Positions 31,736 to 49,743 are shown, counted from the first letter of the stretch. The stretch is 49,975 nucleotides of DNA from an uncultured Anaerolineae bacterium (GCA_964481205.1 CAYZYE010000005.1:1-49975), one strand, 5' to 3'. Made by a program: numbers and translations. Notes: generated by a model from the letters alone, not told the origin.

Positions 31736-32512
31736 ATGGTGACGGACAAACTTTTTCTTCAGGAGCGATTGGATCGTATCGTTACTTTGCTTCAGGAACA
31801 GGGACGTGTTTCGGTTTCCGAGTTGAGCCGGCGTTTTGCCGTTTCAGCCGTGACGATCCGCAATGATTTGACCACGTTGGAAAAACAGGGGTTGCTTATT
31901 CGCACGCATGGCGGGGCGATGCTCAAGCCCATTTCCGGCGCAGAATTGGCTTTTGACTTTCGGCGTGGGCTTTACCCCGTTGAAAAGGAGCGCATTGGTC
32001 GGGCTGCGGCGGCGATGGTGCTGGATGGTGAGGCGATTGCCCTCGATGCCAGCACGACCGCCTGGCATGTCGCCCGGCATCTCAAGGACCGGCGCGAGTT
32101 GACGGTGGTGACCAATGGCTTGTTTATCGCGCTCGAATTTCTCGATTCTCCCGGTGTGATGGTGGTGATGCCCGGTGGTTCGCTGCGCGCGGCGTCGGCA
32201 TCGTTGACCGGCGAGCTGGGCGCAGATATTTTGGATCGTTACAACGTGCAAAAAGGGTTTTTTGGCGCGCGTGGTTTTACCCTGGGCGAAGGGTTGACCG
32301 ATGTCAATCAATACGAGGTGGCGCTCAAACGGCGGATGGTCGATCGCTGCAAACAAGTGTTTGCCGTGGTCGATTCGAGCAAGTGGGGGCAGGTTGCGTT
32401 TGCGACTTTTGCCAAATTGGACGAGATCGAGTGCGTCATCGTCGATCAGTCGGCGCCAGAAGAGATGTTGTCGGTGTTGAGGGAAAGACAAATCAAGGTG
32501 ATGTTGGTGTAA
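31736..32512 (+). CDS. DeoR/GlpR transcriptional regulator (RhaR-like by context)
   Basis: VSVSELSRRFAVSAVTIRNDL..LE..G...RTHGGA; DASTT, VVTN, DSSKW. Confidence 0.93.
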   Translation: MVTDKLFLQERLDRIVTLLQEQGRVSVSELSRRFAVSAVTIRNDLTTLEKQGLLIRTHGGAMLKPISGAELAFDFRRGLYPVEKERIGRAAAAMVLDGEAIALDASTTAWHVARHLKDRRELTVVTNGLFIALEFLDSPGVMVVMPGGSLRAASASLTGELGADILDRYNVQKGFFGARGFTLGEGLTDVNQYEVALKRRMVDRCKQVFAVVDSSKWGQVAFATFAKLDEIECVIVDQSAPEEMLSVLRERQIKVMLV

Positions 32513-32524: not shown

Positions 32525-33802
32525 GTGAACAGGTACCCAACTGAAAAACAGGTTCGGGATGCTTATGCGCTGGCTCGAGAGCGTTACGCTTTGATCGGTG
32601 TGGATGCCGGCCAGGCGTTGAAAACGCTGGCCGGTATTTCGTCCAGTTTGCATTGCTGGCAGGGCGATGATGTGGGGGGCTTTGAGAACCCCGAGGGCGA
32701 GCTTTCAGGCGGCATTGCCGCCACGGGCAATTATCCCGGCAAGGCGCGCAACGCCGATGAGCTGCGCGCCGACCTCGATGTGGCCTATAGCCTGATTCCG
32801 GGCGTGCATCGTCTGAATTTGCACGCCATCTATGCCGAGACAGGCGGTCGGGCGGTCGATCGCAACGAGTTGCAGCCGGCGCATTTTGCCAATTGGGTGG
32901 ATTGGGCCAGGGAAAAGGGGCATGCTCTCGATTTCAACCCCACCTTGTTTTCGCACCCCAAGGCCGGCAGCGGCTTTACGCTGTCGCATTATGACGAGGG
33001 GATTCGCCGGTTTTGGATCGAGCATTGCATCGCCTGCCGCGAGATCGGCGCGTCTTTTGGCCGGGCGCTGGGCGCGCCGTGCGTGACCAACATTTGGATT
33101 CCCGACGGGTTCAAGGACACGCCGGTCGACCGGGCCACGCCGCGTTTGCTGCTCAAGGACTCGCTGGACAAGATTTTGGCCGAGCCGATCGATCCCGCTT
33201 ACAACCTCGACGCGGTCGAGGGCAAGTTGTTTGGCCTGGGCGCCGAGAGTTATACCGTCGGCTCGCACGAGTTTTATCTTGCTTATGCCGTCGCCAACCA
33301 CGTGTTGTTGACTCTTGATTCGGGGCATTTTCACCCCACCGAGGTCATTTCTGACAAGCTTTCGGCGGTGATGCCTTTTGTCGACGAGCTGTTGTTGCAC
33401 GTCAGTCGCGGCGTGCGCTGGGACAGCGATCACGTCGTCACTTTGACCGATGAGCTGCAAGCGATTGCTCAAGAGCTGGTGCGCGGCGGGTACTTGGGCC
33501 GCGTCCATATTGGCCTCGATTACTTTGACGCCAGTATCAACCGCGTGGCTGCGTGGGCGATCGGCGCGCGAAATACGATGCGGGCGCTGTTGATGGCGCT
33601 GCTCGAGCCGCTGGCGCAGATGAAAGCCCTGGAGATCGATGGCAATTATACCGCTCGTCTGGCCCTGTTGGAGGCGCTCAAGGGGATGCCATTTGGCGCG
33701 GTGTGGGACCAGTTTTGCCTGGAGCAGGGCGCGCCGTTGGGGCTGGCCTTGATGGAGGCGATCGAGGATTATGAGGTGAGCACGCTGTCGGCGCGCGGGT
33801 GA
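32525..33802 (+). CDS. rhaA: L-rhamnose isomerase
   Basis: [65 protein letters not shown]. Confidence 0.95.
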
Positions 33803-36629: not shown

Positions 36630-37364
36630 ATGTCTCTACTGACCAAATATGCCTCTCAAGTATCCACTTTTGTTTCCGTTTGTCACCGATTGGCGAACAA
36701 TATGTATGTTACCGGCTATGGGGGCAACCTGGCCTGGAAATTGGAAGACGATCTGTTGCTGATCACCCCCACGCAGGTCAACAAGGGCGACATTACGCCG
36801 CAAGATGTGATCTTGATCGATCTGACCGGCGAGATCATTGAGGGCGTGCGTCGTCCGACCGGCGAGACGCCAATGTACCTCAAGTTCTTTAACGATCGCC
36901 CCGACATCATCTCGGTGCTGCACTGCCACCCGCCCAACATTTGCGCGATGGCGATTATGGACGGCCCCAACTGGCTGATGCGTCCGCTCTATCCCGAAAC
37001 GACGACCGAGATCGGCCCGGTGCCGGTGGTGCCGTATGGCGAACCGCTCACCGACAAATTGGCGCAAAATTTTGCCCCCTATTTGCCCAAGTACAACAGT
37101 TTTATCATGGAAAACCACGGTCTGGTTTCGATGAGTCAGGGCGACATTCGCTGGACGCTGCTCAATGTCGAGGTCTTGGAGGCGACGGCGCAGATGGTCT
37201 TGCTGGCCCTGGCCTCCGGGCAGGGGATCAAGGAACTGGACCGGCAGGCGGTGATCGATCTGGACAATGTGATGAAGACCCGTGGCTTGCCGCTCTTTGG
37301 CGCGCCGGGGGTCAATTTCTCTTTGGAGGCGTTGTATTTTGAGGACGCTCAACTGCCTGGATAG
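36630..37364 (+). CDS. class II aldolase/adducin family (ketose-1-phosphate aldolase candidate)
   Basis: GGNL, ITPT, GET.M, VLHCHPP, MENHG. Confidence 0.88.
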   Translation: MSLLTKYASQVSTFVSVCHRLANNMYVTGYGGNLAWKLEDDLLLITPTQVNKGDITPQDVILIDLTGEIIEGVRRPTGETPMYLKFFNDRPDIISVLHCHPPNICAMAIMDGPNWLMRPLYPETTTEIGPVPVVPYGEPLTDKLAQNFAPYLPKYNSFIMENHGLVSMSQGDIRWTLLNVEVLEATAQMVLLALASGQGIKELDRQAVIDLDNVMKTRGLPLFGAPGVNFSLEALYFEDAQLPG

Positions 37365-37548: not shown

Positions 37549-38634
37549 ATGCCTGAGACGATCGTTCATCTGCGCCGGGCTTTTTTTGCGTCTGGTGAAA
37601 GCAAACTGATCGAGGTAGGCGCGTTATCGGTTTGGGCTTTTCTGTTCGATTCCGGCGTGTGTGGCTTGCGTCTGTGCAGCGACGTCGGCGAACTGGTGCT
37701 GCTGCCCTTTCAGGGCCAGCAAGTCTGGTCGGCGATGTTTAACGGGCGCAATATAACGATGAAGTCGATGTGTGACATGCCGGTCGCGGACGTTCCTTTT
37801 CTGGAAACATTTGGCGGTTTTGTCCAGCATTGCGGCGCGATGGCGGTGGGCGGCCCCGCTCCGGAGGATACCCATCCTTTGCACGGCGAACTGCCCAACG
37901 CGCCGTATCAGCGGGCGTGGCTCGTCGCTGGCGAGGACGCTCAGGGGACGTACATTGGCCTGGGCGGGCAGTATCGTCACACGGTCGCCTTTGGGGTCGA
38001 TTACGTCGCCGAACCACTGCTCAAGCTCCATACCGGCTCGACTTTGTTCAATCTGGCAATGACGATCCGCAACCTCAAAAATTCGCCGATGGAGTTGCTC
38101 TATTTGACCCATGTCAATTTTATGCCCGTCGATGGCGGCCGGTTGGTTTACAGTGCGCAGCCGACGCCGGCGCACGTCCGCGTGCGCGCATCCATTCCGG
38201 CGCACATCCAGCCCCGGCCCGGTTACGCCGAGTTTTTGGCCGGCCTGCGCGAGCATCCCGAAAGGCATCATCGCCTTTCGTCCGAGTTGATGGCCGACCC
38301 AGAAGTGGTTTTGTTCATCGACTATCTGGCCGGCGGCGACGGTTGGGCGCACTCGATGCAAGTGCATCCGGCGGGATACGCCGATTACATTGCCCATCGC
38401 CCAGAGCAACTGCCCAAGGGCACGCGCTGGATCAGCCGCACACCCGATCAACAGGCCATTGCCCTGGTCGAGCCGGGCACGGCCGAGCCGGAAGGCTATA
38501 GCGCCGAAAAAGCCAAAGGCAATGTGCGCGTCTTGCCGCCCCAGGGCACGTTCCACAGCGATCTGATCATCGGCGCGTTGGACGCAGACAAAGCGGCTTT
38601 GATAGAGGCAAAGGTGCTGGAAATTGTAGGCTAG
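37549..38634 (+). CDS. DUF4432 / aldose 1-epimerase-like protein
   Basis: LPFQGQQVW.A.F.GR..TM, FG..HCG..A.G.P..ED.HPLHGELP, YLTHVNF. Confidence 0.8.
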   Translation: MPETIVHLRRAFFASGESKLIEVGALSVWAFLFDSGVCGLRLCSDVGELVLLPFQGQQVWSAMFNGRNITMKSMCDMPVADVPFLETFGGFVQHCGAMAVGGPAPEDTHPLHGELPNAPYQRAWLVAGEDAQGTYIGLGGQYRHTVAFGVDYVAEPLLKLHTGSTLFNLAMTIRNLKNSPMELLYLTHVNFMPVDGGRLVYSAQPTPAHVRVRASIPAHIQPRPGYAEFLAGLREHPERHHRLSSELMADPEVVLFIDYLAGGDGWAHSMQVHPAGYADYIAHRPEQLPKGTRWISRTPDQQAIALVEPGTAEPEGYSAEKAKGNVRVLPPQGTFHSDLIIGALDADKAALIEAKVLEIVG

Positions 38635-38930: not shown

Positions 38931-38969
38931 GGGAGGTGCAACATTAACCGGATTTTATGGGAAGAGAAA

Positions 38970-40271
38970 TTGAACGATTTTGATCTCGGCGTGCGGACGC
39001 AGGCGCTCAAACAATTGTTGTCCTGGGTCGAACAGGCCAAGATCGAAGTCGCGCCGGAGGCCGAGGTCGCCAACATGCACTGCCACACCTTTTTCTCTTT
39101 CAACGGCTATGGCTATTCGCCGACGGCGTTGGCCTGGCTGGCGAAAAAGAATGGCTACAAACTGATCGGCGTCGTCGATTTTGACGTGCTCGATGCGGTA
39201 GACGAGTTTTTGGCCGCCTGCGATCTCGCCGGCGTGCGCGGCAGCGCGGGGATGGAGACGCGCGTTTTCATCCCCGAATTTGCTACGCGCGAGATCAACT
39301 CGCCGGGCGAACCGGGCATTTCTTATTATATGGGCATCGGGTTCACGTCGAGCCGGGTGCCGGGGACGGTCGTGGACATTTTGGCGGGAATGAAGCGCCG
39401 CGCCGGGACGCGCAACCGGGGGTTGATCGAGCGGGTCAACGCCTACCTCGCGCCGGTGCAGATCGACTATGAGCGCGACGTGCTGCCGCTTACGCCGTCG
39501 GGCAACGCCACCGAGCGTCACATCACCGCCGCGTATGCCGCCGTTGCTGCGCGGATGATCGATGACCCGGCGGCCTTTTGGTCGTGCAAGCTCCGGCTGC
39601 CGCCGGCGCAGATCGCCGCTGTTTTCGACGACCCGGTCAAACTCGAAAAGCTGATTCGCGCCAGGTTGATGAAGCGCGGCGGGGTGGGCTATGTGCCGCC
39701 CGACGGCGGTTCTTTTCCAACGGTGGAAAAGGTGAACGAGTTGATTTCCGCTTGCGGCGCGCTGCCCTGCGCCACTTGGCTCGACGGCACTCTGCCGGGC
39801 GAGCAGGATGAAGAGGAACTGCTCCGGCTGCTGATCGACAAGGGCGTGGCGGCGTTGAACATTGTTCCAGACCGCAACTGGAACATTGCCGACCCGGAGG
39901 TCAAAAAGCGCAAGCTGCAAAACTTGTACGATGTGGTCGAATTGGCGCAGCGCCTCGACTTGCCGCTCAACATCGGCACCGAGATGAACGCCTTTGGTCT
40001 CAAGCGGATCGATACTTTTGACGCGCCAGAGCTTGCGCCGGTGCGCCAGGCTTTTATCGACGGCGCGTATTTTATCTATGGGCACACGGCGGCCCAGCGC
40101 GCGCTGGGCATTGGCTGCCGGAGCGAGTGGGCGCGGGCGCATTTCGCTTCGCATAGTGAGGAAAATGCCTTTTATACCGCTCTGGGACGCCGCACACCGC
40201 CGGGTGAGGCCGGGTTGGCGTGGTTGAGGCGAATTGGCGCCGGCGCGCCGCAGGCGTTCTTGTCGGCGTAA
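38970..40271 (+). CDS. PHP domain protein with atypical ligand set
   Basis: MHCHTFFS, VVDFD, GMETR; C-terminal IGTEMN in place of GSDxH; start uncertain (TTG 38970 or ATT 38943). Confidence 0.75.
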   Translation: MNDFDLGVRTQALKQLLSWVEQAKIEVAPEAEVANMHCHTFFSFNGYGYSPTALAWLAKKNGYKLIGVVDFDVLDAVDEFLAACDLAGVRGSAGMETRVFIPEFATREINSPGEPGISYYMGIGFTSSRVPGTVVDILAGMKRRAGTRNRGLIERVNAYLAPVQIDYERDVLPLTPSGNATERHITAAYAAVAARMIDDPAAFWSCKLRLPPAQIAAVFDDPVKLEKLIRARLMKRGGVGYVPPDGGSFPTVEKVNELISACGALPCATWLDGTLPGEQDEEELLRLLIDKGVAALNIVPDRNWNIADPEVKKRKLQNLYDVVELAQRLDLPLNIGTEMNAFGLKRIDTFDAPELAPVRQAFIDGAYFIYGHTAAQRALGIGCRSEWARAHFASHSEENAFYTALGRRTPPGEAGLAWLRRIGAGAPQAFLSA

Positions 40272-40274
40272 GGG

Positions 40275-40319
40275 CAGGGCTGTTCAATTCTAATTTGTGA
40301 TCAGGTCTGAACATCTCTG
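40275..40319. mobile_element. 45-bp minimal MITE of the same family as 33966-34138
   Basis: Left end CAGGGCTGTTCAATTCTAATTTGTGA (25 bp identical to the larger MITE); degenerate right end TGAACATCTCTG; CGTAAGGG duplicated at 40267-40274 and 40320-40327. Confidence 0.75.
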
Positions 40320-40392
40320 CGTAAGGGAACAGTCTGTTCGATCGGGATGGGTTGCCGGTTGAATTGCACAATTTGGAACAAAGGAGTACACT

Positions 40393-42627
40393 GTGAATCA
40401 TTTTGATAGTTGGCAGTTTCCTCTCCCACGCACACACACCGGCATCTTGCAGGGCAACGGCAAGATGGGGGTGATGATCTGGGGCGAGGGCAATGTGCTG
40501 CGCGTCACCGTCAACCGGGGCGATTTTTGGGACCACCGCGGCGGCAAGCCCTGGGTCGATGGGATGAGCTATGCCAACATTCGACGCCTGCTTGAGACGG
40601 GCGACGAGGCCGGGCTGCGCGCGTTGTTCGAGACGGGTGAGGTTCAGTCCGGGCATCCGCGCCGGCCGAGTTTGCTGCCCCTGGGACGGATCGAGTTGGT
40701 GTTGGATGAGGCGTTGTCGCTCGCCAGCGCCGATCTCGATATGCAGCGCGGGCAGGTGATCGTCCACGCGGCGGGGGGCGGGCGCAAGTGCGATCTGCTC
40801 CTCACTTTGTCGATGGTCGATCCGCTGCTGCACATTCGCGCCTCGGCGGCGTTTCCGGCGCTCCGGCGGGTGACGGCGTGGGATTATGTCGGCGAACAAT
40901 TGCGCGACATTTCCTTTGCCGAACCCGAGTTGTTCGACGGCGAAACTCTTTCCGGCTGGGTGCAGGCGCGCCCGGTCGATCCGCCGCTGTGTCTTGGCTA
41001 TCGCCTTGTAGACGGCGAATTGTGGTTGGGGTTGGAATACGGCAATGACGCGCCCTCGGCGCGGGCGGCGGTGGGGCGGTTGGTCGATCGTTACGCTGCG
41101 CAAGGCAGCAAACAGTTGCGCGTCGATGTCGCCGATTGGTGGGCGCGCTATTGGGCGACCGTGCCCAAACTCGATCTCCCCAACCCGCGTCTCGATTTCC
41201 TGTATCGCTATGGCATGTACAAATTTGCCGGGCTGACCAGTCCCGATGGAGGAGTGCCCGCCGGATTGCAAGGGCCGTGGATCGAGGAATACCAGCTGCC
41301 GCCCTGGTCGGGCGATTATCACTTTAACATCAATGTGCAAATGTGCTACTGGCCTGCTTATCGCGGCAACCGGTTGAGTCACCTCAAACCGCTCTTTGAA
41401 TTGATCGCCGGTTGGACGCCGCGCCTGCGCGACAATGCGCGCGTTTTTGTCGGGATCGAGGATGGGTTTATGCTTCCGCATGCGGTCGATGATCGTTGCA
41501 CGTGTATGGGCGGTTTTTGGACCGGCTCGGTCGATCATGGCTGCACGGCCTGGGTGGCGCAAATGATGTACGATTATTATCGTTATTCGGGCGACGTCGA
41601 TTTTTTGCGCCGGACGGCTTATCCCTTTATGGTCGGGGCGATGCGGGTCTATGAGGAAATGCTCGAACGCGACGGCGATGGCTGGGCTTTGCCGGTCAGC
41701 GTCTCGCCCGAATATCGCGGCTCGGCGATGAACGCCTGGGGGCGCAACGCCAGTTTTCAATTGGCGGCGATCCATCGCTTGTGCGAAAACCTCGGCGAGG
41801 CGGCGCGGATACTGGGCGAGACGCCCAGGCCGGTTTGGGCCAGCATCCAGGCAGGATTGCCTCTGGCGGCGCTGTACGGCGCGGAGGGGGGCGCGCAGAT
41901 TGCGCTCTGGGAGGGGACGCCGCTCCAAGAGAGCCACCGTCACCACTCGCACCTGGCGGGCATCTGCCCCTTTGACACGCTCGATCTCGACAACCCTGCC
42001 TGGCAACCGATTTATGAGCGATCGCTGCGTACCTGGGTCCGCGAGGGGATGGGCATGTGGTCGGGGTGGTGTGTGCCCTGGGCGAGTATGATCCACACCC
42101 GGTTCAATAATCCCGAGATGGCCGAGTTGCTGCTCGAAATCTGGCAGCGCGTCTACACCAACGAGGGGCACGGCACGCTGCACGACTGCGTCTTTCCCGG
42201 CTTTACGCTGATCGGCGCGCCGGGGATGATTGACCCCGTTCATTTGCCCGAAAAGATGCAGATGGACGCCGGCATGAGCGCGACCACGGCGATTATGGAG
42301 ATGATGCTGCACGAACGGCGTGGCGTGCATTATCTCTTTGCCGGCGCGCCTGCGGCCTGGTCGCGAGTGGCCTTTGACGGCATCCGCGCTGCGGGCGCGT
42401 TTCTGGTCGGCGCGGAACGGGTGAATGGGACGGTGACGCGGGTGACGATTCGCAGCCAGGTGGGCGGTGTTTTTCGTGTAGCGAACCCGTGGCCGGCACA
42501 AGCCGAAATCGTTTCCTCAACAGGAGAACAAAAGGCGATAAAGGGAGATATTTTAACACTCAGTACACAAGCCGGGCAGACGCTTACAATACGATCGTTT
42601 GTCCGGGATCAAGTTCAAAGGAGTTGA
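40393..42627 (+). CDS. GH95-like glycoside hydrolase (alpha-L-fucosidase/L-galactosidase family), cytoplasmic
   Basis: LQGPW, WSGDYHFNINVQMCYWP, SVSPEY, HRHHSHL, QMDAG; no signal peptide. Confidence 0.8.
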   Translation: MNHFDSWQFPLPRTHTGILQGNGKMGVMIWGEGNVLRVTVNRGDFWDHRGGKPWVDGMSYANIRRLLETGDEAGLRALFETGEVQSGHPRRPSLLPLGRIELVLDEALSLASADLDMQRGQVIVHAAGGGRKCDLLLTLSMVDPLLHIRASAAFPALRRVTAWDYVGEQLRDISFAEPELFDGETLSGWVQARPVDPPLCLGYRLVDGELWLGLEYGNDAPSARAAVGRLVDRYAAQGSKQLRVDVADWWARYWATVPKLDLPNPRLDFLYRYGMYKFAGLTSPDGGVPAGLQGPWIEEYQLPPWSGDYHFNINVQMCYWPAYRGNRLSHLKPLFELIAGWTPRLRDNARVFVGIEDGFMLPHAVDDRCTCMGGFWTGSVDHGCTAWVAQMMYDYYRYSGDVDFLRRTAYPFMVGAMRVYEEMLERDGDGWALPVSVSPEYRGSAMNAWGRNASFQLAAIHRLCENLGEAARILGETPRPVWASIQAGLPLAALYGAEGGAQIALWEGTPLQESHRHHSHLAGICPFDTLDLDNPAWQPIYERSLRTWVREGMGMWSGWCVPWASMIHTRFNNPEMAELLLEIWQRVYTNEGHGTLHDCVFPGFTLIGAPGMIDPVHLPEKMQMDAGMSATTAIMEMMLHERRGVHYLFAGAPAAWSRVAFDGIRAAGAFLVGAERVNGTVTRVTIRSQVGGVFRVANPWPAQAEIVSSTGEQKAIKGDILTLSTQAGQTLTIRSFVRDQVQRS

Positions 42628-42632
42628 ATGCA

Positions 42633-44348
42633 ATGTCTGATAAATTGACGGAATACAAACGCGGCGATGGCCCGCTGCCAGAAAAGAACAGGTTGTGGCC
42701 GCTGTACGGCGCTGGGTTTGAGAACTTGGGCCAGAACGGTCAGCCGATCGACGCGCCGATGCCCGACTATGGCCCCGATGAGCTGTTGGTGCGCCACGAT
42801 GCCTGCGGGTTGTGCTTTTCCGACATCAAGGTGATCCGCGCCGGGCAAGACCACCCGCGCATTTACCGCGACATGAGCGTCGATCCCGTTGTCCTCGGCC
42901 ACGAGGTGGCGCTGACCGTGGTCGGTGTGGGCGAAAACCTCAACGGGCAGTACCGGGTGGGCGACCGTTTTGTAGTGCAGGCCGATATTTACGCCAAAGG
43001 CGTTAATTTGGCGTATGGATATGAAATTCAGGGTGGATTATCGCAGTATAATGTGATCGATTGGAAGGTGTTGGCCGGCGATGACGGCTGCTATCTGTTG
43101 CCCGTTCAGGCGACGACCGGCTATGCCGAGAGCGCGTTGACCGAGCCGTGGGCCTGCGTCATTGCCGCATACGAGCTGAGCTATCGCACCGCTCTCAAGG
43201 ACGGCGGCGCGATGTGGGTCGTGGGGACGCCGGGCGCGTCGCGCGACGACTATGTGGTGGGCGCCGGGTTCGATGCCGCCTCACATCCGGCCAAACTCTT
43301 GCTCACCGATGTACCGGCGCAGTTTGCCGTCTGGCTGCAAGCGCGCGCCGCCGAGTTGGGCGTCGAGGTGATTGAAAACGTGGCCCTCGACGCGCCGCCG
43401 GTCGAAACGGTGGACGATATTGTGCTGTTGGGCGCCGATCCCGACCGCATCGAGCGGCTCAGTCCTTATTTGGCCCAGTTTGGGATTATGGCCTTGATCG
43501 ACGACAAGCCGATGGCGCGTCCGGTGTCCGTCGACGTGGGGCGCGTCCATTATTCGCGTTGGCTCTATGTGGGCGGCGCCGGCCCCGACATTGCCCAGGC
43601 GTACAGCGCCGTGCCTGCGCGTTCGACGCTCAAGCCGGGTGGCAAAGCCTGGTTTGTCGGCGCGGGCGGGCCGATGGGGCGTATGCACGTCCAGCGGGCG
43701 ATCCAGTCCGAAAACAGCCCGCAGACGATCGTCTGCACCGACGTCAGCGACGGGCGGCTGCAAGACCTGTATCTCTCTTTTGCCGGAGAGGCGGAGAGCA
43801 AGGGGATCGCGTTCGTGTGCCTCAATCCGATGAACAAAGAGGCGTATGCCGGGGGAATGGCGCCGTTCAAAGAAACCGGCCTGGACGACATTGTCGTTTT
43901 GGCGCCGATCGCGCCGGTGATCGCCGACGCGGCGACGTACCTTGCTCCCCGAGGGGTGATGAACATCTTTGCCGGGATTCAGCGCGGCAAGCTGGCGCGA
44001 ATTGACCTCAGCGATGCCTACCTCAAGGGCGTGCGCGTGATCGGCCATTCGGCGTCGAGCATTGACGATATGAAGTTGATGTTGTCTCAGGCCGAGAGCG
44101 GCACGCTTTCGCCCAACCGCTCGGTGGCCGCGGTCGGCTCGTTGGACGCGGCCCGCGACGGTTTTCAGGCCATGGTCGATACGATCTATCCCGGCAAGGT
44201 GGTGGTGTACCCGCAGATCAAGGATTTGGCGCTGACCGCGCTGGTCGATTTGAAGGATGTGCTGCCGACCGTTTACGCGCTGCTCCAAGATGGGCGCGAG
44301 TGGACGACCGAGGCCGAGGCCGAGTTTTTGCAGCAGATGTTGTCATAG
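42633..44348 (+). CDS. extended Zn-dependent MDR dehydrogenase, SorE (sorbose-1-P reductase)-like, 571 aa
   Basis: CGLCFSD, VLGHE, LTEPWACV, GAGGPMG. Confidence 0.75.
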   Translation: MSDKLTEYKRGDGPLPEKNRLWPLYGAGFENLGQNGQPIDAPMPDYGPDELLVRHDACGLCFSDIKVIRAGQDHPRIYRDMSVDPVVLGHEVALTVVGVGENLNGQYRVGDRFVVQADIYAKGVNLAYGYEIQGGLSQYNVIDWKVLAGDDGCYLLPVQATTGYAESALTEPWACVIAAYELSYRTALKDGGAMWVVGTPGASRDDYVVGAGFDAASHPAKLLLTDVPAQFAVWLQARAAELGVEVIENVALDAPPVETVDDIVLLGADPDRIERLSPYLAQFGIMALIDDKPMARPVSVDVGRVHYSRWLYVGGAGPDIAQAYSAVPARSTLKPGGKAWFVGAGGPMGRMHVQRAIQSENSPQTIVCTDVSDGRLQDLYLSFAGEAESKGIAFVCLNPMNKEAYAGGMAPFKETGLDDIVVLAPIAPVIADAATYLAPRGVMNIFAGIQRGKLARIDLSDAYLKGVRVIGHSASSIDDMKLMLSQAESGTLSPNRSVAAVGSLDAARDGFQAMVDTIYPGKVVVYPQIKDLALTALVDLKDVLPTVYALLQDGREWTTEAEAEFLQQMLS

Positions 44349-44376
44349 ATATTATGAACCTGTAGGAGGATGCGAT

Positions 44377-45168
44377 ATGGATAAAATATTGGACGGCAAA
44401 ACCGCGGTTGTCACCGGCGGGGCGCAGGGGTTGGGGGCGGCGTTGTGCCTGCGGCTGGCTCAAGAGGGCTGCAACGTCGTGGTCGCCGATTTGAACCTGG
44501 AAGGCGCGCAAAAGACTGCCGCCGAGATCGCCGCCGCAAGCGGGCAGCAGGTCATTGCCGTGGGCGTCGATGTGACGAATGAGGCGCAGGTCGAGGCGAT
44601 GGTGCAAACCGCCGTCGAGAAATTTGGTGCGCTGGATATTTTGGTCTCCAACGCCGGCATTTTGCTCTCCGGCCCGATCGACGAGTTTGAGGTGGGCAAA
44701 TGGCAGGCGGTGATCAATGTCAATCTGGTCGGTTATATGATCTGCGCCAAGCACGCTGCGCGGGCGATGAAAAAACAGGGCCGCGGCGTGATCATTCAGA
44801 TCAACAGCAAATCGGGCAAGAAGGGAAGTTTCAAGAACTCGGCTTATGCGGCGGCCAAGTTTGGCGGCATCGGCCTGACCCAGAGTTTGGCCCTAGAGCT
44901 GGCCGGCGAGGGCATCCGCGTCAATGCCGTGTGCCCCGGCAATCTGCTCAACTCGCCGCTGTGGGTCAATTCGTTGTTCAAACAGTACGCTCAAAATCAG
45001 GGCATCACCGAGGATGAGGTACGTCAAAAGTACATCAATCAGGTGCCGATGAAGCGTCCTTGCGAGTACGAGGATGTCGCCAACGTGGTCGTCTTTTTGG
45101 CCTCCGAGCAGGCGGGTTATATGACCGGTCAGGCGATCAATGTCACTGGCGGGCAAGAGATGCGGTAG
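44377..45168 (+). CDS. srlD: SDR, sorbitol-6-phosphate 2-dehydrogenase-like
   Basis: TGGAQGLG, QINSKSGKKGSFKNSAYAAAKFGGIGLTQSLALELA, PGNLL.SP, VPMKRPC.Y.DV, TGQ.INVTGGQ. Confidence 0.75.
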   Translation: MDKILDGKTAVVTGGAQGLGAALCLRLAQEGCNVVVADLNLEGAQKTAAEIAAASGQQVIAVGVDVTNEAQVEAMVQTAVEKFGALDILVSNAGILLSGPIDEFEVGKWQAVINVNLVGYMICAKHAARAMKKQGRGVIIQINSKSGKKGSFKNSAYAAAKFGGIGLTQSLALELAGEGIRVNAVCPGNLLNSPLWVNSLFKQYAQNQGITEDEVRQKYINQVPMKRPCEYEDVANVVVFLASEQAGYMTGQAINVTGGQEMR

Positions 45169-45174
45169 GCGGGC

Positions 45175-45195
45175 GGTTGGTGGTTGGTGGTTGGT
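45175..45195. repeat. heptamer tandem repeat (GGTTGGT)x3
   Basis: Directly visible between srlD and rhaB. Confidence 0.6.
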
Positions 45196-45221
45196 GACCA
45201 CTGTTTTCAAGGAGGATGGGT

Positions 45222-46709
45222 ATGACCAGGTTTCTCGCTTTCGATCTGGGCGCGGAAAGTGGCCGCGCTGTGGTAGGACATTTGGACGGCGGCAAGTTGA
45301 GTCTGGAGGTGATTCATCGTTTTCCAAACGGGCCGGTGCGCGTGGGCGACAATTTGCACTGGGATGTGCTGCGTCTGTGGAGCGAAATCAAGACCGGTTT
45401 GACAATGACGGTGAAACGATACGATGACATCGCCAGCATCGGCCTCGACACCTGGGGCGTCGATTTTGGCCTGTTGGCCGAGGATGGTACGCTGCTCGGC
45501 AACCCGTACCATTATCGCGACAGCCGCACCGACGGGATGATGGACGCCGCGTTCGAGATCGTGCCGCGCGCCGAGATTTTTGACGTGACCGGCATCCAGT
45601 TTATGCAGCTCAACAGTCTGTACCAGCTTTTGGCGATGGTCAAGGCGAACGCGCCGGCGTTGTCGATGGCGCATACATTGCTCACCATGCCCGACTTGCT
45701 CAATTTTTGGTTGGCCGGGCGCCGGGTGAGCGAGTTTACGATCGCCACGACGACGCAGTGCTATGACCCGCGCGCCGGCGATTGGGCCTACGATCTGTTG
45801 CGGCGATTGGGCGTCCCCACAGAAATGTTTGCCGAGATTGTCCCACCGGGCACGGTGCTCGGCGATCTGTTGCCCGGTGTGCAGGAAGAAACGGGCGCGG
45901 GGGCGATCCCTGTGGTGGCGACGGCGACGCACGATACCGGCTCGGCGGTGGCGGCGGTGCCGGCGACGGGGGAGGATTATATTTATCTCAGTTCGGGCAC
46001 GTGGTCGCTGATGGGTATTGAGTCTGAAACACCGCTGATCAGCGAGGATATGCTTTATTTTAATTTGACCAACGAGGGCGGCGTGGCGCATACGCCGCAT
46101 GCGCCAAATGTTTTTCGCGTGCTCAAAAACATTATGGGGTTGTGGCTGGTCCAAGAGTGCAAGCGTGAGTGGGAACGCGCGGGGCAGGTGTACAGTTACG
46201 ACGAGTTGACGCGGATGGCCGCCGACGCGCCCGCGTTCGGGCCGTTGGTGTTGGTCGATGATCCGCGTTTTCTCGCGCCGGGCGGGATGCCGGAGCGCAT
46301 TCGAGCGTTTTGCCGGGAAACAGGTCAAAGCGCGCCGCAGAGCAAAGGCGAGATTTTGCGCTGTGCGCAGGAAAGTCTGGCCCTCGAGTATCGCTGGGTG
46401 GCCGAAAGTCTGGACAAACTCACCGGCAAGCGCCTGGACACGATTCACATCATCGGCGGCGGGTCCAAGAACAAGTTGCTCAACCAGTTTACCGCCGACG
46501 CGACCGGGCGCACGGTCGTTTCCGGGCCGGTCGAGGCGACGGCGATCGGCAATGTGCTGGTGCAGGCGATGGCGATGGGGCAGATTTCGTCGTTGGAAGA
46601 GGGGCGTAGAATCGTCGCCCAGTCCTTTGACGTGGAGAGATTTGAACCCGGCGATTCGTCGCGGTGGGATGAGGCGTATCAAAAGTACCTGGGGTTCAAG
46701 AATATCTAG
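45222..46709 (+). CDS. rhaB: rhamnulokinase (FGGY family)
   Basis: AFDLGAESGR, DTWGVDFGLL, YHYRD.RT, TGIQFMQLNSLYQL, THDT.SAV, LSSGTWSL, TNEGG, GPVEATA.GN. Confidence 0.92.
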   Translation: MTRFLAFDLGAESGRAVVGHLDGGKLSLEVIHRFPNGPVRVGDNLHWDVLRLWSEIKTGLTMTVKRYDDIASIGLDTWGVDFGLLAEDGTLLGNPYHYRDSRTDGMMDAAFEIVPRAEIFDVTGIQFMQLNSLYQLLAMVKANAPALSMAHTLLTMPDLLNFWLAGRRVSEFTIATTTQCYDPRAGDWAYDLLRRLGVPTEMFAEIVPPGTVLGDLLPGVQEETGAGAIPVVATATHDTGSAVAAVPATGEDYIYLSSGTWSLMGIESETPLISEDMLYFNLTNEGGVAHTPHAPNVFRVLKNIMGLWLVQECKREWERAGQVYSYDELTRMAADAPAFGPLVLVDDPRFLAPGGMPERIRAFCRETGQSAPQSKGEILRCAQESLALEYRWVAESLDKLTGKRLDTIHIIGGGSKNKLLNQFTADATGRTVVSGPVEATAIGNVLVQAMAMGQISSLEEGRRIVAQSFDVERFEPGDSSRWDEAYQKYLGFKNI

Positions 46710-46815: not shown

Positions 46816-47505
46816 ATGACTACCGCAGGACAGGATTTGATCGATATACCCGAAATTATCAGGACGGAACTTTTCTGTTCGCCGTACCTGCCATTGTATG
46901 CGCGGCAGTTGCAAATCTGGATGGAAAGGGAACAAGCCAGACGCGAGCAGTTTTATGAGGAAATGTCCGAGACGCAAAAAACAGAATTTATCAACGGGGA
47001 GGTGATTGTGCATTCACCGGTCAGGTCTTGCCACAATCTGGTTGGACAAAACTTGTTGCACTTGATGGGCACTTTTGTACGCAAACATAAACTAGGTTAC
47101 ATTGGATATGAGAAAATTCTCATCACGCTGACGCGCAATGATTATGAACCCGATCTTTGCTACTTTGGCCCGGCAAAAGCGCAGCACTTTACGCCGCAGC
47201 AGACCAGGTTTCCCGCTCCAGACTTTATAGCGGAAATCACTTCTCCAGGGACAGAGGCCAACGATCGGGGCATCAAATTTGAGGATTATGCGTTTCACGG
47301 TGTGCGTGAATATTGGATCATTGATCCAGAACAAGAATTTGTCGAACAATATTTTCTCCAAGATCGAGTTTACGAATTGCACTCCAAAGCGTTGACCGGC
47401 GTGTTGGAAAGCATCGCCATTGCGGGCTTTGTTATTCCGGTGCGGGCGATTTTCGACGAGGTGGAGCAATTTACGGCATTGCAAGCGCTGTTGAAAGGCG
47501 CGTAG
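46816..47505 (+). CDS. Uma2/DUF820 family putative endonuclease
   Basis: EFINGEV, PDL.YF, PD.IAEI.SP.T...DR..K..Y..GV.EYWIIDP; lower GC than its neighbours. Confidence 0.9.
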   Translation: MTTAGQDLIDIPEIIRTELFCSPYLPLYARQLQIWMEREQARREQFYEEMSETQKTEFINGEVIVHSPVRSCHNLVGQNLLHLMGTFVRKHKLGYIGYEKILITLTRNDYEPDLCYFGPAKAQHFTPQQTRFPAPDFIAEITSPGTEANDRGIKFEDYAFHGVREYWIIDPEQEFVEQYFLQDRVYELHSKALTGVLESIAIAGFVIPVRAIFDEVEQFTALQALLKGA

Positions 47506-47532: not shown

Positions 47533-49611
47533 ATGCAAGTAATTCAAGATTTTCTCGTTCAGGCGGGTTTGACCAAAGAACAGGCGCTCGATCTGCTGCG
47601 GCAGATGTGGGAGATCCGCATGTTCGAAAACCGGGTTTATGAGCTGCTGGGGCAGAACATTATCAAGGGCGCGTCGCACCTTTACGCCGGGCAAGAGGCC
47701 GTCGCCGTGGGCGCGATCTCGACGCTGCGCGACGATGATTTGATCACCAGCACGCATCGCGGGCACGGGCACTGTCACGCGCGCGGCGCGGCGATCGCCA
47801 AGAGCGAAGCGGACAAGACGGCGCATTACAACAAAATGCTGGCCGAATTGTGCGGCCGGGCGACCGGCTACTGTCTGGGGCGCGGCGGTTCGATGCACAT
47901 TGCCGATGTCGAAAAGGGCAACCTTGGCGCGACCGGCATCGTCGGCGGCAACATTCCTGTGGCGGCCGGCGCGGCGTTGGCGCAGCAGATGCAGGGCAGC
48001 GACCGGGTGGTGCTCTGCTTTTTCGGCGACGGCGCAACCAACACCGGCAACTTTCACGAGGCGCTCAACCTGGCCTCGCGCTGGTGCCTGCCGGTCGTCT
48101 TTATCGCCGAAAACAACCTCTATGGGATGAGCGTGCCCTTTTGCAACGCTTCGGCGCTGATGGACATTGCCGATCGCGCCTGCGCTTATGGGATGGACGG
48201 CGAGGTCGTCGATGGCATGGATGTGCTCGCCGTGCGCGAGGCGGTCGCCAGAGCGGTGGAAAAAGCGCGTTTGGGCAAAGGGCCGACGCTGATCGAGGCC
48301 AAGACGTACCGCTATTACGGCCACAGCCGCTCTGACCCGCGCGCTTATCGCACCAAGACGGAAGAGCAAGAGTGGCACGACCGCGACGCGATCGAAACCT
48401 TTGCCGCCCGGCTGGTCGAGGCCGGCATTTGCACCCAGGCCGAGATCGACGCGCTAGAGGTCAAGGTCGAGGACGAGATCGACGCGGCGCAAGAATTTGC
48501 GCTCAATTCCCCCTTTCCAGACCCGGCCGAACTGGAAAAGTTTGTCTATGCGCCTTTTGTCTGGCGCGAGGAGGATTTTGCCCGCGAGCGCCGTTTGCGC
48601 AAACTGTGCAAGAACGCCGACGAGAACACGCCGGGGGTACACAAGGTACTGTACAAAGAGGCGCTGGTCGAGGCGGCGGACGAAGAGATGCAGCGCGACG
48701 AGCGCGTGTTCATTATGGGTGAAGATGTGGGCTTGTACGGCGGCGCCTATGGTGCGACCAAGGGGCTGTTTCAAAAATACGGCGTCGATCGCGTCAAGGA
48801 CACGCCGATCAGTGAGGCGACGATCGGCGGCGCGGCGGTCGGCGCGGCGATGGCCGGCATGCGCCCGGTGGCCGAGATCATGTATGTCGATTTTACGCCG
48901 TTGGCGATGGACCAGATCGCCAATCAGGGCGCCAAAAACCGTTACATGTTTGGCGGCAAGACCAAAGTGCCGATGGTCGTTCGTTCTGAGGGCGGTGCGG
49001 GGCGCAGCATCGCTGCCCATCACAGCCAGTCGCTCGAGGCGCTGTGGACGCATTTCCCCGGCATTTACGTGGTGATGCCGGCTACACCCTATGACGCCAA
49101 AGGCTTGCTCAAAGCAGCGATCCGCGACGACAACCCGGTGATGTTTATCGAACATAAAATGCTCTACAACACCGATGGTTACGTGCCCGACGAGGATTAC
49201 ATCATTCCCTATGGCGTCGCCGATGTCAAGCGCGAGGGCAACGACGTGACCGTCGTTACTTATAGCCGGATGGTGCTGCGCGCCCTGGAGGCAGCCGAAA
49301 AATTGGCCGAGGAGGGAATCAGCGTCGAGGTGATCGACCTGCGCACGCTCAAGCCGCTCGATATGGACACCGTCGCCGCGTCGGTGAAAAAGACCGGGCG
49401 CGTGGTCGGCGTGACCGAGGCGTACAAGACCGGCTCGTTCATCAGCGAGTTGGCGATGCGCATTCAGGAAGAGGTGTTCGACTGGCTCGACGCGCCGGTC
49501 GTCCGTGTCGCTGCCGCCGATGTGCCCGTGCCGATGAGCGAACCGCTGGAAGACGCCGATATTCCCAATGTCGAGGCGATCATTGCCGGGATTCGCCAGG
49601 TACTGAGATAA
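47533..49611 (+). CDS. fused TPP-dependent 2-oxoacid/acetoin dehydrogenase E1 alpha+beta
   Basis: HLYAGQEA, HRGHGH, GDGA..TGNFHEALN, YRYYGHS.SDP (alpha); GEDV, DTPISE, HHSQS, EHK.LY, DLRTL.PLD (beta). Confidence 0.92.
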   Translation: MQVIQDFLVQAGLTKEQALDLLRQMWEIRMFENRVYELLGQNIIKGASHLYAGQEAVAVGAISTLRDDDLITSTHRGHGHCHARGAAIAKSEADKTAHYNKMLAELCGRATGYCLGRGGSMHIADVEKGNLGATGIVGGNIPVAAGAALAQQMQGSDRVVLCFFGDGATNTGNFHEALNLASRWCLPVVFIAENNLYGMSVPFCNASALMDIADRACAYGMDGEVVDGMDVLAVREAVARAVEKARLGKGPTLIEAKTYRYYGHSRSDPRAYRTKTEEQEWHDRDAIETFAARLVEAGICTQAEIDALEVKVEDEIDAAQEFALNSPFPDPAELEKFVYAPFVWREEDFARERRLRKLCKNADENTPGVHKVLYKEALVEAADEEMQRDERVFIMGEDVGLYGGAYGATKGLFQKYGVDRVKDTPISEATIGGAAVGAAMAGMRPVAEIMYVDFTPLAMDQIANQGAKNRYMFGGKTKVPMVVRSEGGAGRSIAAHHSQSLEALWTHFPGIYVVMPATPYDAKGLLKAAIRDDNPVMFIEHKMLYNTDGYVPDEDYIIPYGVADVKREGNDVTVVTYSRMVLRALEAAEKLAEEGISVEVIDLRTLKPLDMDTVAASVKKTGRVVGVTEAYKTGSFISELAMRIQEEVFDWLDAPVVRVAAADVPVPMSEPLEDADIPNVEAIIAGIRQVLR

Positions 49612-49743
49612 TAAATACACGAGTTACGCAGTTCGAGTCATGGAGGGCGTTTTGCACCCGAGATATATCAAAAAGCAACTCGTTCTATCCAAGAACTCGA
49701 TGTTTGGGCCTTTCTAGTACTAGAGCAGGACTTTCCTGGGACC

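What the first reader, a model, noticed from the sequence alone, without database searches (positions are those of the whole stretch)
38970..46709. Candidate ketose-phosphate 'flip' pathway: atypical PHP, SorE-like, SrlD-like and RhaB
Known: SorE reduces L-sorbose-1-P to D-glucitol-6-P and SrlD oxidises that to fructose-6-P, inverting the carbon chain; these normally accompany a PTS. Here there is no PTS, and the pair sits directly before a rhamnulokinase-type ketose 1-kinase, in an operon with RhaA, which is known to accept L-mannose and other rare aldoses. Inference: isomerase, kinase, reductase and dehydrogenase channel a rare hexose into central metabolism alongside aldol cleavage. The SorE-like protein is unusually long (571 aa) and the PHP has altered ligands (VDFD, GTEMN).
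Basis: inference. Interest (0 to 1): 0.6.

Follow-up and report, generated by a model that had tools for sequence, protein, structure and literature searches.

The report
Alternative deoxy-sugar breakdown module in Anaerolineae
The flagged genes are part of a conserved, undescribed gene module that in many Anaerolineae replaces the usual last steps of rhamnose/fucose breakdown, and probably turns the sugar phosphate end-for-end before a vitamin-B1 enzyme complex cuts it into acetyl-CoA and a four-carbon sugar phosphate.

Summary
An atypical PHP-fold protein, a 571-aa SorE/YggP-type zinc dehydrogenase, an SrlD-type SDR (53% identical to solved SrlD) and rhamnulokinase lie on one strand with RhaA, and the genome has no PTS.

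The extra MDR length is a duplicated, degenerate Rossmann domain.

In 80 Chloroflexota loci the order [RhaA/RhaI][RhaB][class II aldolase] PHP-MDR-SDR [E1ab-E2-E3] recurs. In 151 genomes of the class:
- MDR-long co-occurs with RhaB (46 of 54).
- It never co-occurs with the known RhaEW fusion (0 of 46, against 18 of 25 RhaB genomes without it).
- Its E1ab orthogroup is tied to it (47 of 55).
- PHP alternates, without overlap, with an EryC-like TIM-barrel gene (36, 13, 0 both). EryC is a ketose-1-phosphate racemase.

Best reading (about 45%): deoxyketose-1-P is epimerised at C3, reduced at C2 and oxidised at C5. The resulting 1-deoxyketose-6-P is cleaved by E1/E2/E3 to acetyl-CoA plus erythrose-4-P.

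Main rival: aldolase first, with lactaldehyde oxidised to pyruvate for a dedicated PDH.

No description of this module was found. Biochemistry is untested.

The parts
31736..32512 (+). DeoR-family regulator, first gene of the + strand operon
   Evidence: Pfam HTH_DeoR + DeoRC. A 49% identical DeoR gene sits next to E1ab-E2 in a complete relative genome. DeoR genes are found in 19 of 80 related loci.
32525..33802 (+). L-rhamnose isomerase RhaA
   Evidence: Pfam RhaA 654 bits. NCBIfam NF002203 668.8 bits, over the 572 cut-off.
36630..37364 (+). Class II aldolase/adducin-family protein, 244 aa (FucA/OtnC-like). It occupies the place that a RhaE-like aldolase holds in most related loci.
   Evidence: Pfam Aldolase_II 118.6 bits. 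Best NCBIfam hits lie below their cut-offs. A RhaE-like AldII is found in 18 of 80 loci, and is fused to MDR-long in P0142.
37549..38634 (+). DUF4432 protein. Inferred to be mutarotase-like.
   Evidence: Pfam DUF4432 67.9 bits. Function not tested.
38970..40271 (+). Atypical PHP-fold metalloprotein, proposed ketose-1-phosphate 3-epimerase. The true start is probably upstream of the TTG.
   Evidence: AF2 pLDDT 89.4. Z 22 to RNase AM and BAD_1165. Ligand substitutions Asn45 and Phe71. Found in 36 of 37 cases together with MDR-long, and never with the EryC-like gene that takes its position.
40393..42627 (+). GH95 glycoside hydrolase (alpha-L-fucosidase/galactosidase family). A lineage-specific insert between PHP and MDR.
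   Evidence: Pfam Glyco_hydro_95_cat 174 bits + C-terminal domain. Present at this place in only 2 of 80 related loci.
42633..44348 (+). 571-aa SorE/YggP-type zinc MDR with a duplicated Rossmann domain. Proposed deoxyketose-1-phosphate 2-reductase.
   Evidence: 27% identical to Klebsiella SorE over the full length. Internal duplication. Zn ligands C61, H90, E91, E171 are invariant. AF2 pLDDT 96.3, with polyol-DH-type neighbours.
44377..45168 (+). SrlD-type SDR. Proposed 1-deoxyhexitol-6-phosphate 2-dehydrogenase.
   Evidence: NCBIfam PRK12384 372 bits, over the 307 cut-off. 53% identical to SrlD PDB 5o3z at 247.8 bits, against 166 bits for the next SDR. Adjacent to MDR in 68 of 80 loci and fused to it in P0137.
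45216..46709 (+). Rhamnulokinase RhaB
   Evidence: TIGR02627 500.9 bits (cut-off 527.95), plus FGGY_N and FGGY_C. Co-occurs with MDR-long in 46 of 54 genomes.
46816..47505 (+). Uma2-family endonuclease gene, probably an insertion between rhaB and E1ab. Its start is approximate.
   Evidence: Pfam Uma2 102 bits. The close relative L001 has RhaB directly followed by E1ab.
47533..49611 (+). Fused E1 alpha-beta TPP-dependent dehydrogenase. Proposed to cleave the 1-deoxyketose phosphate. The contig ends at 49975.
   Evidence: Pfam E1_dh + Transket_pyr + Transketolase_C. It is the only E1ab in the genome; E2 and E3 lie at the starts of contigs C31 and C16. The orthogroup is found in 47 of 55 cases with MDR-long and in no RhaEW genome.

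Best explanation
The finding is the core of a conserved catabolic module of Anaerolineae and other Chloroflexota. The module takes over from rhamnulokinase (and, in relatives, from fucose genes) in place of the known RhaEW aldolase/lactaldehyde dehydrogenase.

Proposed mechanism, all steps inferred:
1. L-rhamnulose-1-P or L-fuculose-1-P is epimerised at C3 by the PHP-fold protein. In other lineages an EryC-like TIM-barrel enzyme does this.
2. The class II aldolase-family protein possibly resets C4 by retro-aldol/aldol.
3. The SorE-like MDR reduces the C2 keto group to a 6-deoxyhexitol-1-P.
4. The SrlD-like SDR oxidises C5. The molecule, read from the other end, is now a 1-deoxy-ketohexose-6-P. 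In the cleanest version this is 6-deoxy-L-sorbose-1-P -> 1-deoxy-D-glucitol-6-P -> 1-deoxy-D-fructose-6-P.
5. This acetoin-like methyl ketol is cleaved by the dedicated E1ab/E2/E3 complex into acetyl-CoA and D-erythrose-4-P.

No lactaldehyde is formed.

Shown here: the gene content, homologies, fusions, synteny and phyletic patterns. Inferred: every substrate and the order of steps.
For: Homology to sugar-phosphate enzymes:
- The SDR is 53% identical to solved SrlD, scores above NCBIfam's equivalog cut-off, and keeps the C-terminal substrate loop.
- The MDR is homologous over its full length to SorE and YggP.
- Distant MDR-long relatives also sit with phosphosugar genes: SIS, PfkB, FGGY, DeoR.

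Linkage:
- PHP-MDR-SDR is the core of 80 loci, accompanied by RhaB (21), RhaA (12), E1ab (24), E2 (19), RhaE-like aldolase (18), and also FucI and RhaI.
- Gene order is collinear with the proposed steps: RhaB-RhaA-AldII-PHP-MDR-SDR-E1ab-E2-E3 in L010, L047 and L055.
- Fusions AldII-MDR and MDR-SDR exist.

Replacement of the known route: among 71 RhaB genomes, 0 of 46 with MDR-long have RhaEW, against 18 of 25 without it.

Dedicated E1:
- The orthogroup is found in 47 of 54 MDR genomes, in 8 of 97 others, and in none of the RhaEW genomes. It usually lies within 10 kb of MDR.
- The genome also has PFOR for pyruvate.
- The nearest plasmid relatives of the E1 lie inside sugar operons.

Epimerase step:
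- PHP and an AP_endonuc_2 gene occupy the same slot and never co-occur: 36, 13 and 0.
- The best solved relative of the AP_endonuc_2 gene is Brucella EryC. EryC is a tetrulose-4-P racemase, i.e. a ketose-1-P epimerase (PMC11508834).
- PHP has lost canonical metal ligands, which fits a change of chemistry.

Stereochemistry (established Fischer configurations and the known SorE reaction): only with C3 inversion does cleavage give D-erythrose-4-P.
Against: - No enzyme was assayed. Every substrate is inferred from family resemblance and context.
- A class II aldolase is nearly always present and is fused to the MDR in some lineages. That is most simply read as aldol cleavage preceding the MDR, which would destroy the proposed substrate.
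- The E1ab looks most like pyruvate dehydrogenase E1: the NCBIfam PDH E1 beta model scores above its cut-off, and the best PDB hits are PDH E1. No sequence feature showing a non-pyruvate substrate was found.
- The PHP fold has no known epimerase member.
- E2 is replaced by a thiolase in one distant locus, L094.
- The roles of the frequently linked DUF89 phosphatase, MtlD-like and GatD-like dehydrogenases are unexplained.
- The phyletic counts come from related genomes, so the P values overstate independence.
Confidence: 0.45

Rival explanations
1. Aldolase first. The class II aldolase (RhaE-like) cleaves the deoxyketose-1-P into DHAP and L-lactaldehyde, as in the known pathways. The MDR and SDR then oxidise lactaldehyde in two steps, via methylglyoxal or lactate, to pyruvate. 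The PHP or EryC-like protein isomerises or racemises the C3 aldehyde. The E1ab/E2/E3 is a dedicated pyruvate dehydrogenase.
For: - AldII is RhaE-like, is fused to the MDR, and MDR is fused to SDR, as expected for channelling of reactive C3 aldehydes.
- The module replaces RhaEW, which is an aldolase plus a lactaldehyde dehydrogenase.
- The E1ab is most similar to PDH E1.
- Two dehydrogenases match the two oxidations needed.
Against: - The SDR is far closer to sorbitol-6-P dehydrogenase (372 bits, 53% identity) than to the RhaW domain (193 bits).
- The MDR belongs to the SorE/YggP sugar-phosphate clade.
- The EryC-like alternate of PHP points to a ketose-1-phosphate substrate.
- A pathway-specific PDH that is absent from RhaEW genomes is hard to explain, because those genomes also end in pyruvate, and the genome has PFOR.
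- MtlD-like and GatD-like hexitol-phosphate dehydrogenases in the loci have no role in this scheme.
Confidence: 0.22
2. RhaA/RhaB together with the MDR/SDR pair channel a rare non-deoxy hexose (L-mannose, L-galactose, L-gulose or their ketoses) through a hexitol phosphate into fructose-6-P or tagatose-6-P. This would run in parallel with normal aldol cleavage of rhamnulose-1-P.
For: - SorE and SrlD do exactly this with L-sorbose (established knowledge), and homology to both is confirmed.
- GH95 enzymes release L-fucose or L-galactose (family knowledge).
- GatD-like, MtlD-like and PfkB genes occur in related loci.
Against: - The module is mutually exclusive with RhaEW instead of additional to it.
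- Its tightest partner is a TPP/lipoamide complex, which a normal ketohexose-6-P does not need.
- GH95 is present in only 2 of 80 loci.
- The linked isomerases are the rhamnose and fucose ones.
Confidence: 0.07
3. An acetoin/2,3-butanediol utilisation cluster (butanediol dehydrogenases plus an acetoin dehydrogenase complex) that merely lies beside rhamnose genes.
For: - Structural neighbours of the MDR include (2R,3R)-butanediol dehydrogenase.
- The SDR also hits butanediol/acetoin reductase models at about 200-213 bits.
- E1/E2/E3 complexes of this type cleave acetoin (established knowledge).
Against: - It does not explain 85% co-occurrence with RhaB, zero overlap with RhaEW, the aldolase-MDR fusions, or the EryC-like/PHP slot.
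- The SDR scores much higher on the SrlD model than on the butanediol models.
Confidence: 0.03

Closest known systems
L-sorbose pathway enzymes SorE (L-sorbose-1-P reductase) and SrlD/SorD (sorbitol-6-P 2-dehydrogenase) of Enterobacteria and lactobacilli
   Same: The same two enzyme families appear in the same order. The chemical logic is the same: reduce the keto group next to the phosphate, then oxidise the far end, so the chain is read in reverse. MDR is 27% identical to Klebsiella SorE. SDR is 53% identical to Erwinia SrlD.
   Different: - There is no PTS. The phosphate comes from an FGGY kinase.
- The MDR carries a duplicated, degenerate Rossmann domain.
- The partners are rhamnose and fucose genes.
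- The product would be a 1-deoxyketose-6-P, which cannot enter glycolysis as fructose-6-P does and is tied to an E1/E2/E3 complex.
RhaEW (bifunctional rhamnulose-1-P aldolase / L-lactaldehyde dehydrogenase) of Chloroflexus and Bacillus (Rodionova et al. 2013, PMC3870299)
   Same: It holds the same place in the pathway, downstream of RhaA/RhaB, under a DeoR-type regulator in Chloroflexota. The stand-alone aldolase of the module is RhaE-like.
   Different: It is never found together with the module (0 of 46 against 18 of 25). The module has three to six extra proteins. Its SDR is SrlD-like, not RhaW-like (193 bits against the 567 cut-off).
Acetoin dehydrogenase / pyruvate dehydrogenase E1-E2-E3 complexes, and DXP synthase chemistry
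   Same: A TPP-dependent E1 with lipoyl E2 and E3. The proposed substrate is a methyl ketol like acetoin, and a one-carbon-longer homologue of 1-deoxy-D-xylulose-5-P.
   Different: The alpha and beta subunits are fused. The orthogroup is restricted to genomes with the MDR module. It is regulated next to a DeoR gene. Its substrate is unknown.
Brucella erythritol pathway, EryC tetrulose-4-P racemase (PMC11508834)
   Same: In PHP-less lineages an EryC-like TIM-barrel gene sits directly before the MDR. Both routes would end in D-erythrose-4-P.
   Different: The window itself has a PHP-fold protein in that slot, not an EryC homologue. The substrate would be a six-carbon deoxyketose phosphate.

Membership tests
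SorE-type L-sorbose-1-phosphate reductase (MDR) | Zinc MDR catalytic domain with Cys/His/Glu/Glu ligands | tested here: met
   C61, H90, E91 and E171 are invariant in 56 sequences. ADH_N is recognised by Pfam. The fold matches polyol-DH MDRs.
SorE-type L-sorbose-1-phosphate reductase (MDR) | Full-length homology to a named SorE, including the C-terminal W..EAEA tail | tested here: met
   27% identity in two segments that cover the Klebsiella sorE product. 32% identity between the short relative P0230 and E. coli YggP.
SorE-type L-sorbose-1-phosphate reductase (MDR) | About 410 aa with a single Rossmann domain, encoded in a sorbose PTS operon | tested here: not met
   The protein is 571 aa with two Rossmann copies. 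No PTS is present in the window or genome.
SorE-type L-sorbose-1-phosphate reductase (MDR) | Reduces L-sorbose-1-P to D-glucitol-6-P | not testable with these tools
   Needs an enzyme assay.
SrlD sorbitol-6-phosphate 2-dehydrogenase (SDR) | Score above the curated equivalog cut-off, and close identity to a solved SrlD | tested here: met
   PRK12384 372 bits against 307. 53% identity and 247.8 bits to 5o3z.
SrlD sorbitol-6-phosphate 2-dehydrogenase (SDR) | SDR cofactor and catalytic motifs (TGxxxGxG, N, S, YxxxK) | tested here: met
   VTGGAQGLG, NVNLVG, INSKS and YAAAK are read directly from the translation.
SrlD sorbitol-6-phosphate 2-dehydrogenase (SDR) | Encoded with a glucitol PTS; substrate is D-glucitol-6-P | tested here: not met
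   The context is rhaB, the MDR and E1ab. No PTS is present. The substrate was not assayed.
PHP phosphoesterase superfamily | PHP (distorted beta/alpha barrel) fold | tested here: met
   VIA-align Z 22.2 to 9etk and 22.0 to 3o0f, with 275-276 residues aligned. Foldseek E 9e-11.
PHP phosphoesterase superfamily | Pfam PHP gathering score | tested here: not met
   20 bits against 26.4.
PHP phosphoesterase superfamily | Full set of canonical ligands for the trinuclear metal site | tested here: not met
   HxH is kept (H37, H39). The SDG aspartate is Asn45 and the DHD histidine is Phe71. Both are invariant in 32 homologues. The last motif reads GTEMN.
Rhamnulokinase RhaB | Equivalog model score and FGGY domains | tested here: inconclusive
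   TIGR02627 500.9 bits against a 527.95 cut-off. It is by far the best model, and both FGGY domains are present.
RhaEW bifunctional aldolase/dehydrogenase | Fused RhaE aldolase and RhaW SDR scoring above TIGR02632's cut-off | tested here: not met
   The best match in the genome is the SDR alone: 193 bits against 567.75, covering only the C-terminal half of the model.
Pyruvate dehydrogenase E1 (heterotetrameric type) | Curated model scores for the alpha and beta parts | tested here: inconclusive
   The beta subfamily model NF006667 scores 398 against 321 (met). The alpha model TIGR03182 scores 357.9 against 393.85 (not met). The substrate is not inferable.

The most novel reading that the evidence does not exclude
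Many Anaerolineae degrade L-rhamnose and L-fucose by a hitherto undescribed, lactaldehyde-free route. The ketose-1-phosphate is epimerised, reduced and re-oxidised at the methyl end, then split by a dedicated lipoamide-linked TPP complex into acetyl-CoA and D-erythrose-4-phosphate. A PHP-fold protein has been recruited as a sugar-phosphate epimerase, which would be the first non-hydrolytic PHP enzyme.
Probability: 0.4. Interest if true: 0.85.

Novelty: new variant of a known kind. Interest (0 to 1): 0.75.

Why it matters
Rhamnose and fucose are major sugars of plant, algal and bacterial glycans. Anaerolineae are abundant degraders in sediments, digesters and mats.

All known phosphorylative routes end in DHAP plus lactaldehyde. 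That forces anaerobes either to excrete propanediol or to run microcompartments.

A route that keeps all six carbons as acetyl-CoA and a pentose-phosphate-pathway intermediate would:
- change carbon and energy budgets for these organisms;
- correct automatic annotations ('sorbitol-6-phosphate dehydrogenase', 'alcohol dehydrogenase catalytic domain protein', 'pyruvate dehydrogenase');
- add new chemistry to the 2-oxoacid dehydrogenase and PHP families;
- offer enzymes for making 1-deoxy and 6-deoxy sugars.

Even if the aldolase-first rival is right, the module is a clear non-orthologous replacement of RhaEW that is missing from pathway databases.

Tried and rejected
- Regulon motif: I looked for a shared DeoR operator in the window's intergenic regions. 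Only MITE copies and weak direct repeats were found, so no regulon claim is made.
- Absence of aldolases: I tried to show that genomes with RhaB-RhaA-PHP-MDR-SDR operons lack class II aldolases. All five genomes have several, and G000 has three, so absence cannot be argued.
- SrlD phosphate site: the SrlD structure paper is not in the library, and PMC12474828 gave no phosphate-site residues. The phosphate-binding site could not be checked residue by residue.
- NCBIfam: it gave no family for the PHP protein, DUF89, 'unk357' or the EryC-like protein.
- Divergent 2-hydroxyacid dehydrogenase (30509-31672): it is generic, not PdxB-like. It gives no support for a tetronate branch.
- MDR-long contexts at 35-41% identity: these belong to other subfamilies and were used only as family-level context.
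- Literature: five full-text searches found no description of the module or its proposed intermediates.
- Earlier findings of this scan: searches by the MDR and PHP sequences and by words found no look-alike in another genome.
- Complex prediction: none was run, because the report does not claim binding.
- Model coordinates: they are not available to scripts, so distances between the zinc site, His306/Tyr307 and the NAD loop were not measured.


Full report
**What is in the window.** The window is a whole 49,975-bp contig of a 94%-complete Anaerolineae-type MAG. From 31.7 kb onward one + strand operon holds, in order:
- a DeoR regulator and RhaA;
- two URO-D-like genes;
- a class II aldolase-family gene and a DUF4432 gene;
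- the PHP-like gene;
- the 571-aa MDR, the SDR and RhaB;
- an inserted Uma2 gene;
- a fused E1 alpha-beta TPP dehydrogenase.

A divergent operon upstream encodes two sulfatases, an MFS transporter, a GFO/IDH/MocA oxidoreductase, a TIM-barrel protein and a 2-hydroxyacid dehydrogenase. The locus as a whole therefore targets a sulfated deoxy-sugar glycan. The contig ends in repeats. The genome's only E2 and E3 genes lie at the very starts of two other contigs, so the operon almost certainly continues E1ab-E2-E3.

**The four proteins of the finding.**

*SDR.* It is a close SrlD relative. It is 53% identical to the solved Erwinia enzyme at 247.8 bits, against 166 bits for the next SDR. It scores above NCBIfam's sorbitol-6-P dehydrogenase cut-off. 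It scores only 193 bits on the RhaEW model.

*MDR.* It has all four zinc ligands and aligns end to end with Klebsiella SorE at 27% identity, including the C-terminal tail. Its ~406-aa relatives resemble E. coli YggP and SorE. The single Rossmann domain of the 406-aa relative aligns to both residues 182-327 and residues 323-500 of the query. The two halves also align to each other at 30% identity, E 2e-5. The extra length is therefore an internal duplication. Copy 1 lost the GxGxxG loop but kept an invariant His-Tyr. Copy 2 kept the cofactor loop. The AlphaFold model is very confident (pLDDT 96.3), and its neighbours are polyol-type MDRs. The ~570-aa form is a large family, with 313 clusters at E < 1e-30.

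*PHP protein.* It folds confidently (pLDDT 89) into a TrpH/RNase AM-type PHP barrel at Z 22. Two canonical metal ligands are replaced: Asp by Asn45 and His by Phe71. The last motif reads GTEMN. All of these are invariant in 32 homologues.

*RhaB.* It scores just under the equivalog cut-off but is clearly a rhamnulokinase.

No PTS enzyme I exists in the genome.

**Conservation of the neighbourhood.** A genome-collection scan returned 80 loci, all from Chloroflexota, with MDR orthologues of 63-75% identity. The SDR is next to the MDR in 68 of them, and PHP in 46; many contigs are truncated. The recurrent order is [DeoR][RhaA or RhaI][RhaB][RhaE-like aldolase] PHP-MDR-[DUF89]-SDR-[E1ab-E2-E3]. 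FucI, a second FGGY kinase, and MtlD-like and GatD-like dehydrogenases are frequent extras.

Natural fusions join the RhaE-like aldolase to the MDR (P0142) and the MDR to the SDR (P0137). E1ab lies nearby in both distant loci.

**Phyletic patterns.** I searched an even sample of 151 genomes of the class.
- MDR-long occurs in 54 and RhaB in 71. 46 have both. The 8 MDR-only genomes carry divergent MDRs.
- The known RhaEW fusion occurs in 19 genomes and never with MDR-long. Of 25 RhaB genomes without the MDR, 18 have RhaEW. Of 46 with it, none do.
- The E1ab orthogroup (>=66% identity) occurs in 55 genomes. 47 of these have MDR-long and none has RhaEW. In 20 of 23 cases checked it lies within 10 kb of the MDR.

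These genomes are related, so the Fisher P values overstate independence. The zero-overlap patterns are still striking. The E1ab is thus not a housekeeping PDH. The genome also has PFOR. In a complete relative genome the orthologous E1ab-E2 pair sits beside a DeoR gene 49% identical to the window's. The closest E1 relatives on plasmids are embedded in sugar transporter/kinase operons of Agrobacterium and Brevibacillus.

**The PHP slot.** PHP occurs in 37 genomes, and 36 of them have MDR-long. In MDR genomes without PHP, the gene directly before the MDR is an AP_endonuc_2 TIM-barrel protein. One example is RhaI-AldII-TIM-MDR-SDR...E1ab-E2 in L104. That protein occurs in 14 genomes: 13 with MDR-long and none with PHP. 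Of the 54 MDR genomes, 36 have PHP, 13 have the TIM-barrel protein, none has both and 5 have neither.

The best solved relative of the TIM-barrel protein is Brucella EryC. EryC is now understood to be a tetrulose-4-phosphate racemase (PMC11508834). That means it inverts the carbon next to the keto group of a ketose whose neighbouring carbon is phosphorylated. This is a clean case of two unrelated metal-dependent barrels filling one pathway slot. It suggests the PHP protein is an epimerase rather than a phosphatase.

**Mechanism proposed (inference).**

The Fischer configurations at C3, C4, C5 are: L-sorbose L,R,L; L-fuculose R,R,L; L-rhamnulose R,L,L.
- SorE reduces L-sorbose-1-P to D-glucitol-6-P, and SrlD oxidises that to fructose-6-P (established knowledge).
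- The exact 6-deoxy analogues would be 6-deoxy-L-sorbose-1-P, 1-deoxy-D-glucitol-6-P and 1-deoxy-D-fructose-6-P.
- 6-Deoxy-L-sorbose-1-P differs from L-fuculose-1-P only at C3. That is the EryC-type step.
- It differs from L-rhamnulose-1-P at C3 and C4. C4 can be inverted by a class II aldolase-family enzyme through retro-aldol/aldol, as AraD does (established knowledge).
- A 1-deoxy-2-ketose is a methyl ketol like acetoin, and a homologue of DXP. TPP-dependent cleavage by E1 gives an acetyl unit for E2/E3 plus the C3-C6 aldehyde.
- With C3 inverted and SorE stereochemistry at C2, that aldehyde is D-erythrose-4-P. Without the inversion it would be D-threose-4-P or L-erythrose-4-P.

The net reaction is: rhamnose + ATP + CoA + NAD+ -> acetyl-CoA + erythrose-4-P + NADH, with no lactaldehyde. 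The gene order in L010, L047 and L055 is collinear with these steps.

**Why confidence is limited.**
- The ever-present aldolase, and its fusion to the MDR, is most simply read as real aldol cleavage before the MDR. In that rival the MDR and SDR oxidise lactaldehyde to pyruvate, and the E1ab is a dedicated PDH. The PDH-like sequence of the E1ab agrees with this.
- Against the rival stand five points: the SrlD and SorE affinities, the EryC-like slot, the hexitol-phosphate dehydrogenase extras, the restriction of the E1ab orthogroup to module genomes, and the sugar-operon context of its relatives.

The rest is unassigned.

That the module as such is a conserved alternative to RhaEW downstream of RhaB I hold at about 90%.

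**Novelty.** Rodionova et al. 2013 (PMC3870299) describe RhaEW and DeoR-type RhaR in Chloroflexales, but nothing like this module. Five full-text searches for the module or its intermediates found nothing. The enzymes belong to known families. Their combination, the duplicated-Rossmann MDR, the module-specific E1ab and the PHP/EryC alternation are undescribed.

Noticed in passing
window 34206-35339 and 35439-36593; L005:7749-8624; L006:9035-11266: Two URO-D/MtaA-like genes lie inside the rhamnose operon. Related loci add a methyl-THF:corrinoid methyltransferase-like gene, a LacI-URO-D fusion and a flavin reductase. This may be a corrinoid-dependent O-demethylase system for methylated deoxy sugars.
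   Followed up: partly
It is present at this place only in the window and its two closest relatives (L001, L002).
   Followed up: yes
window 23701-31672, minus strand: A divergent operon encodes two sulfatases, an MFS transporter, a GFO/IDH/MocA oxidoreductase, an IolE-like TIM-barrel protein and a D-2-hydroxyacid dehydrogenase. Together with GH95 it suggests use of a sulfated fucose/rhamnose glycan.
   Followed up: partly
window 38943-38970: Homologues of the PHP protein extend upstream with a conserved LExQLNDFD. The in-frame window sequence reads WEEKLNDF before the TTG.
   Followed up: partly
window 33962-33990, 34120-34138, 40275-40300: Copies of one short inverted-repeat element (CAGGGCTGTTCAATTCTAATTTGTGA) sit in the RhaA/URO-D gap and right after the PHP stop codon.
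   Followed up: partly
window 46816-47505: A Uma2-family endonuclease gene is inserted between rhaB and E1ab. The close relative L001 has the two genes adjacent.
   Followed up: partly
window 49612-49975; G000 C31:1-110; C16:1-131: The contig ends in REP-like repeats (GTCATTCTGAG...). C31 starts with the reverse complement of that 11-mer about 100 bp before the only E2 gene. E3 starts contig C16. The assembly probably broke the E1ab-E2-E3 operon at repeats.
   Followed up: partly
L101 (Agrobacterium pAtCFBP7129b 139698-157646) and L102 (Brevibacillus plasmid 610937-626884): The nearest annotated relatives of the E1 (50-55% identity) are E1a-E1b-E2-lpdA sets inside sugar operons. One is ABC transporter-PfkB kinase-oxidoreductase. 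The other is PTS plus a SorC-type regulator. They may be further sugar-cleaving 2-oxoacid-dehydrogenase-like complexes of unknown substrate.
   Followed up: no
P0205 cluster, L097:9001-11406: A 64-member cluster fuses a glycerophosphodiester phosphodiesterase domain to an MDR-long of another subfamily. It lies next to DeoR and PfkB genes.
   Followed up: no
L094:4976-8488: In a distant version of the module the E1ab gene is followed by a thiolase and a FabG-like SDR instead of E2.
   Followed up: no
related loci, e.g. L015:12753-14027: A DUF89/ARMT1-like 'damage-control' phosphatase gene sits between MDR and SDR in 24 of 80 loci. In G000 its homologue is on another contig (C102).
   Followed up: partly
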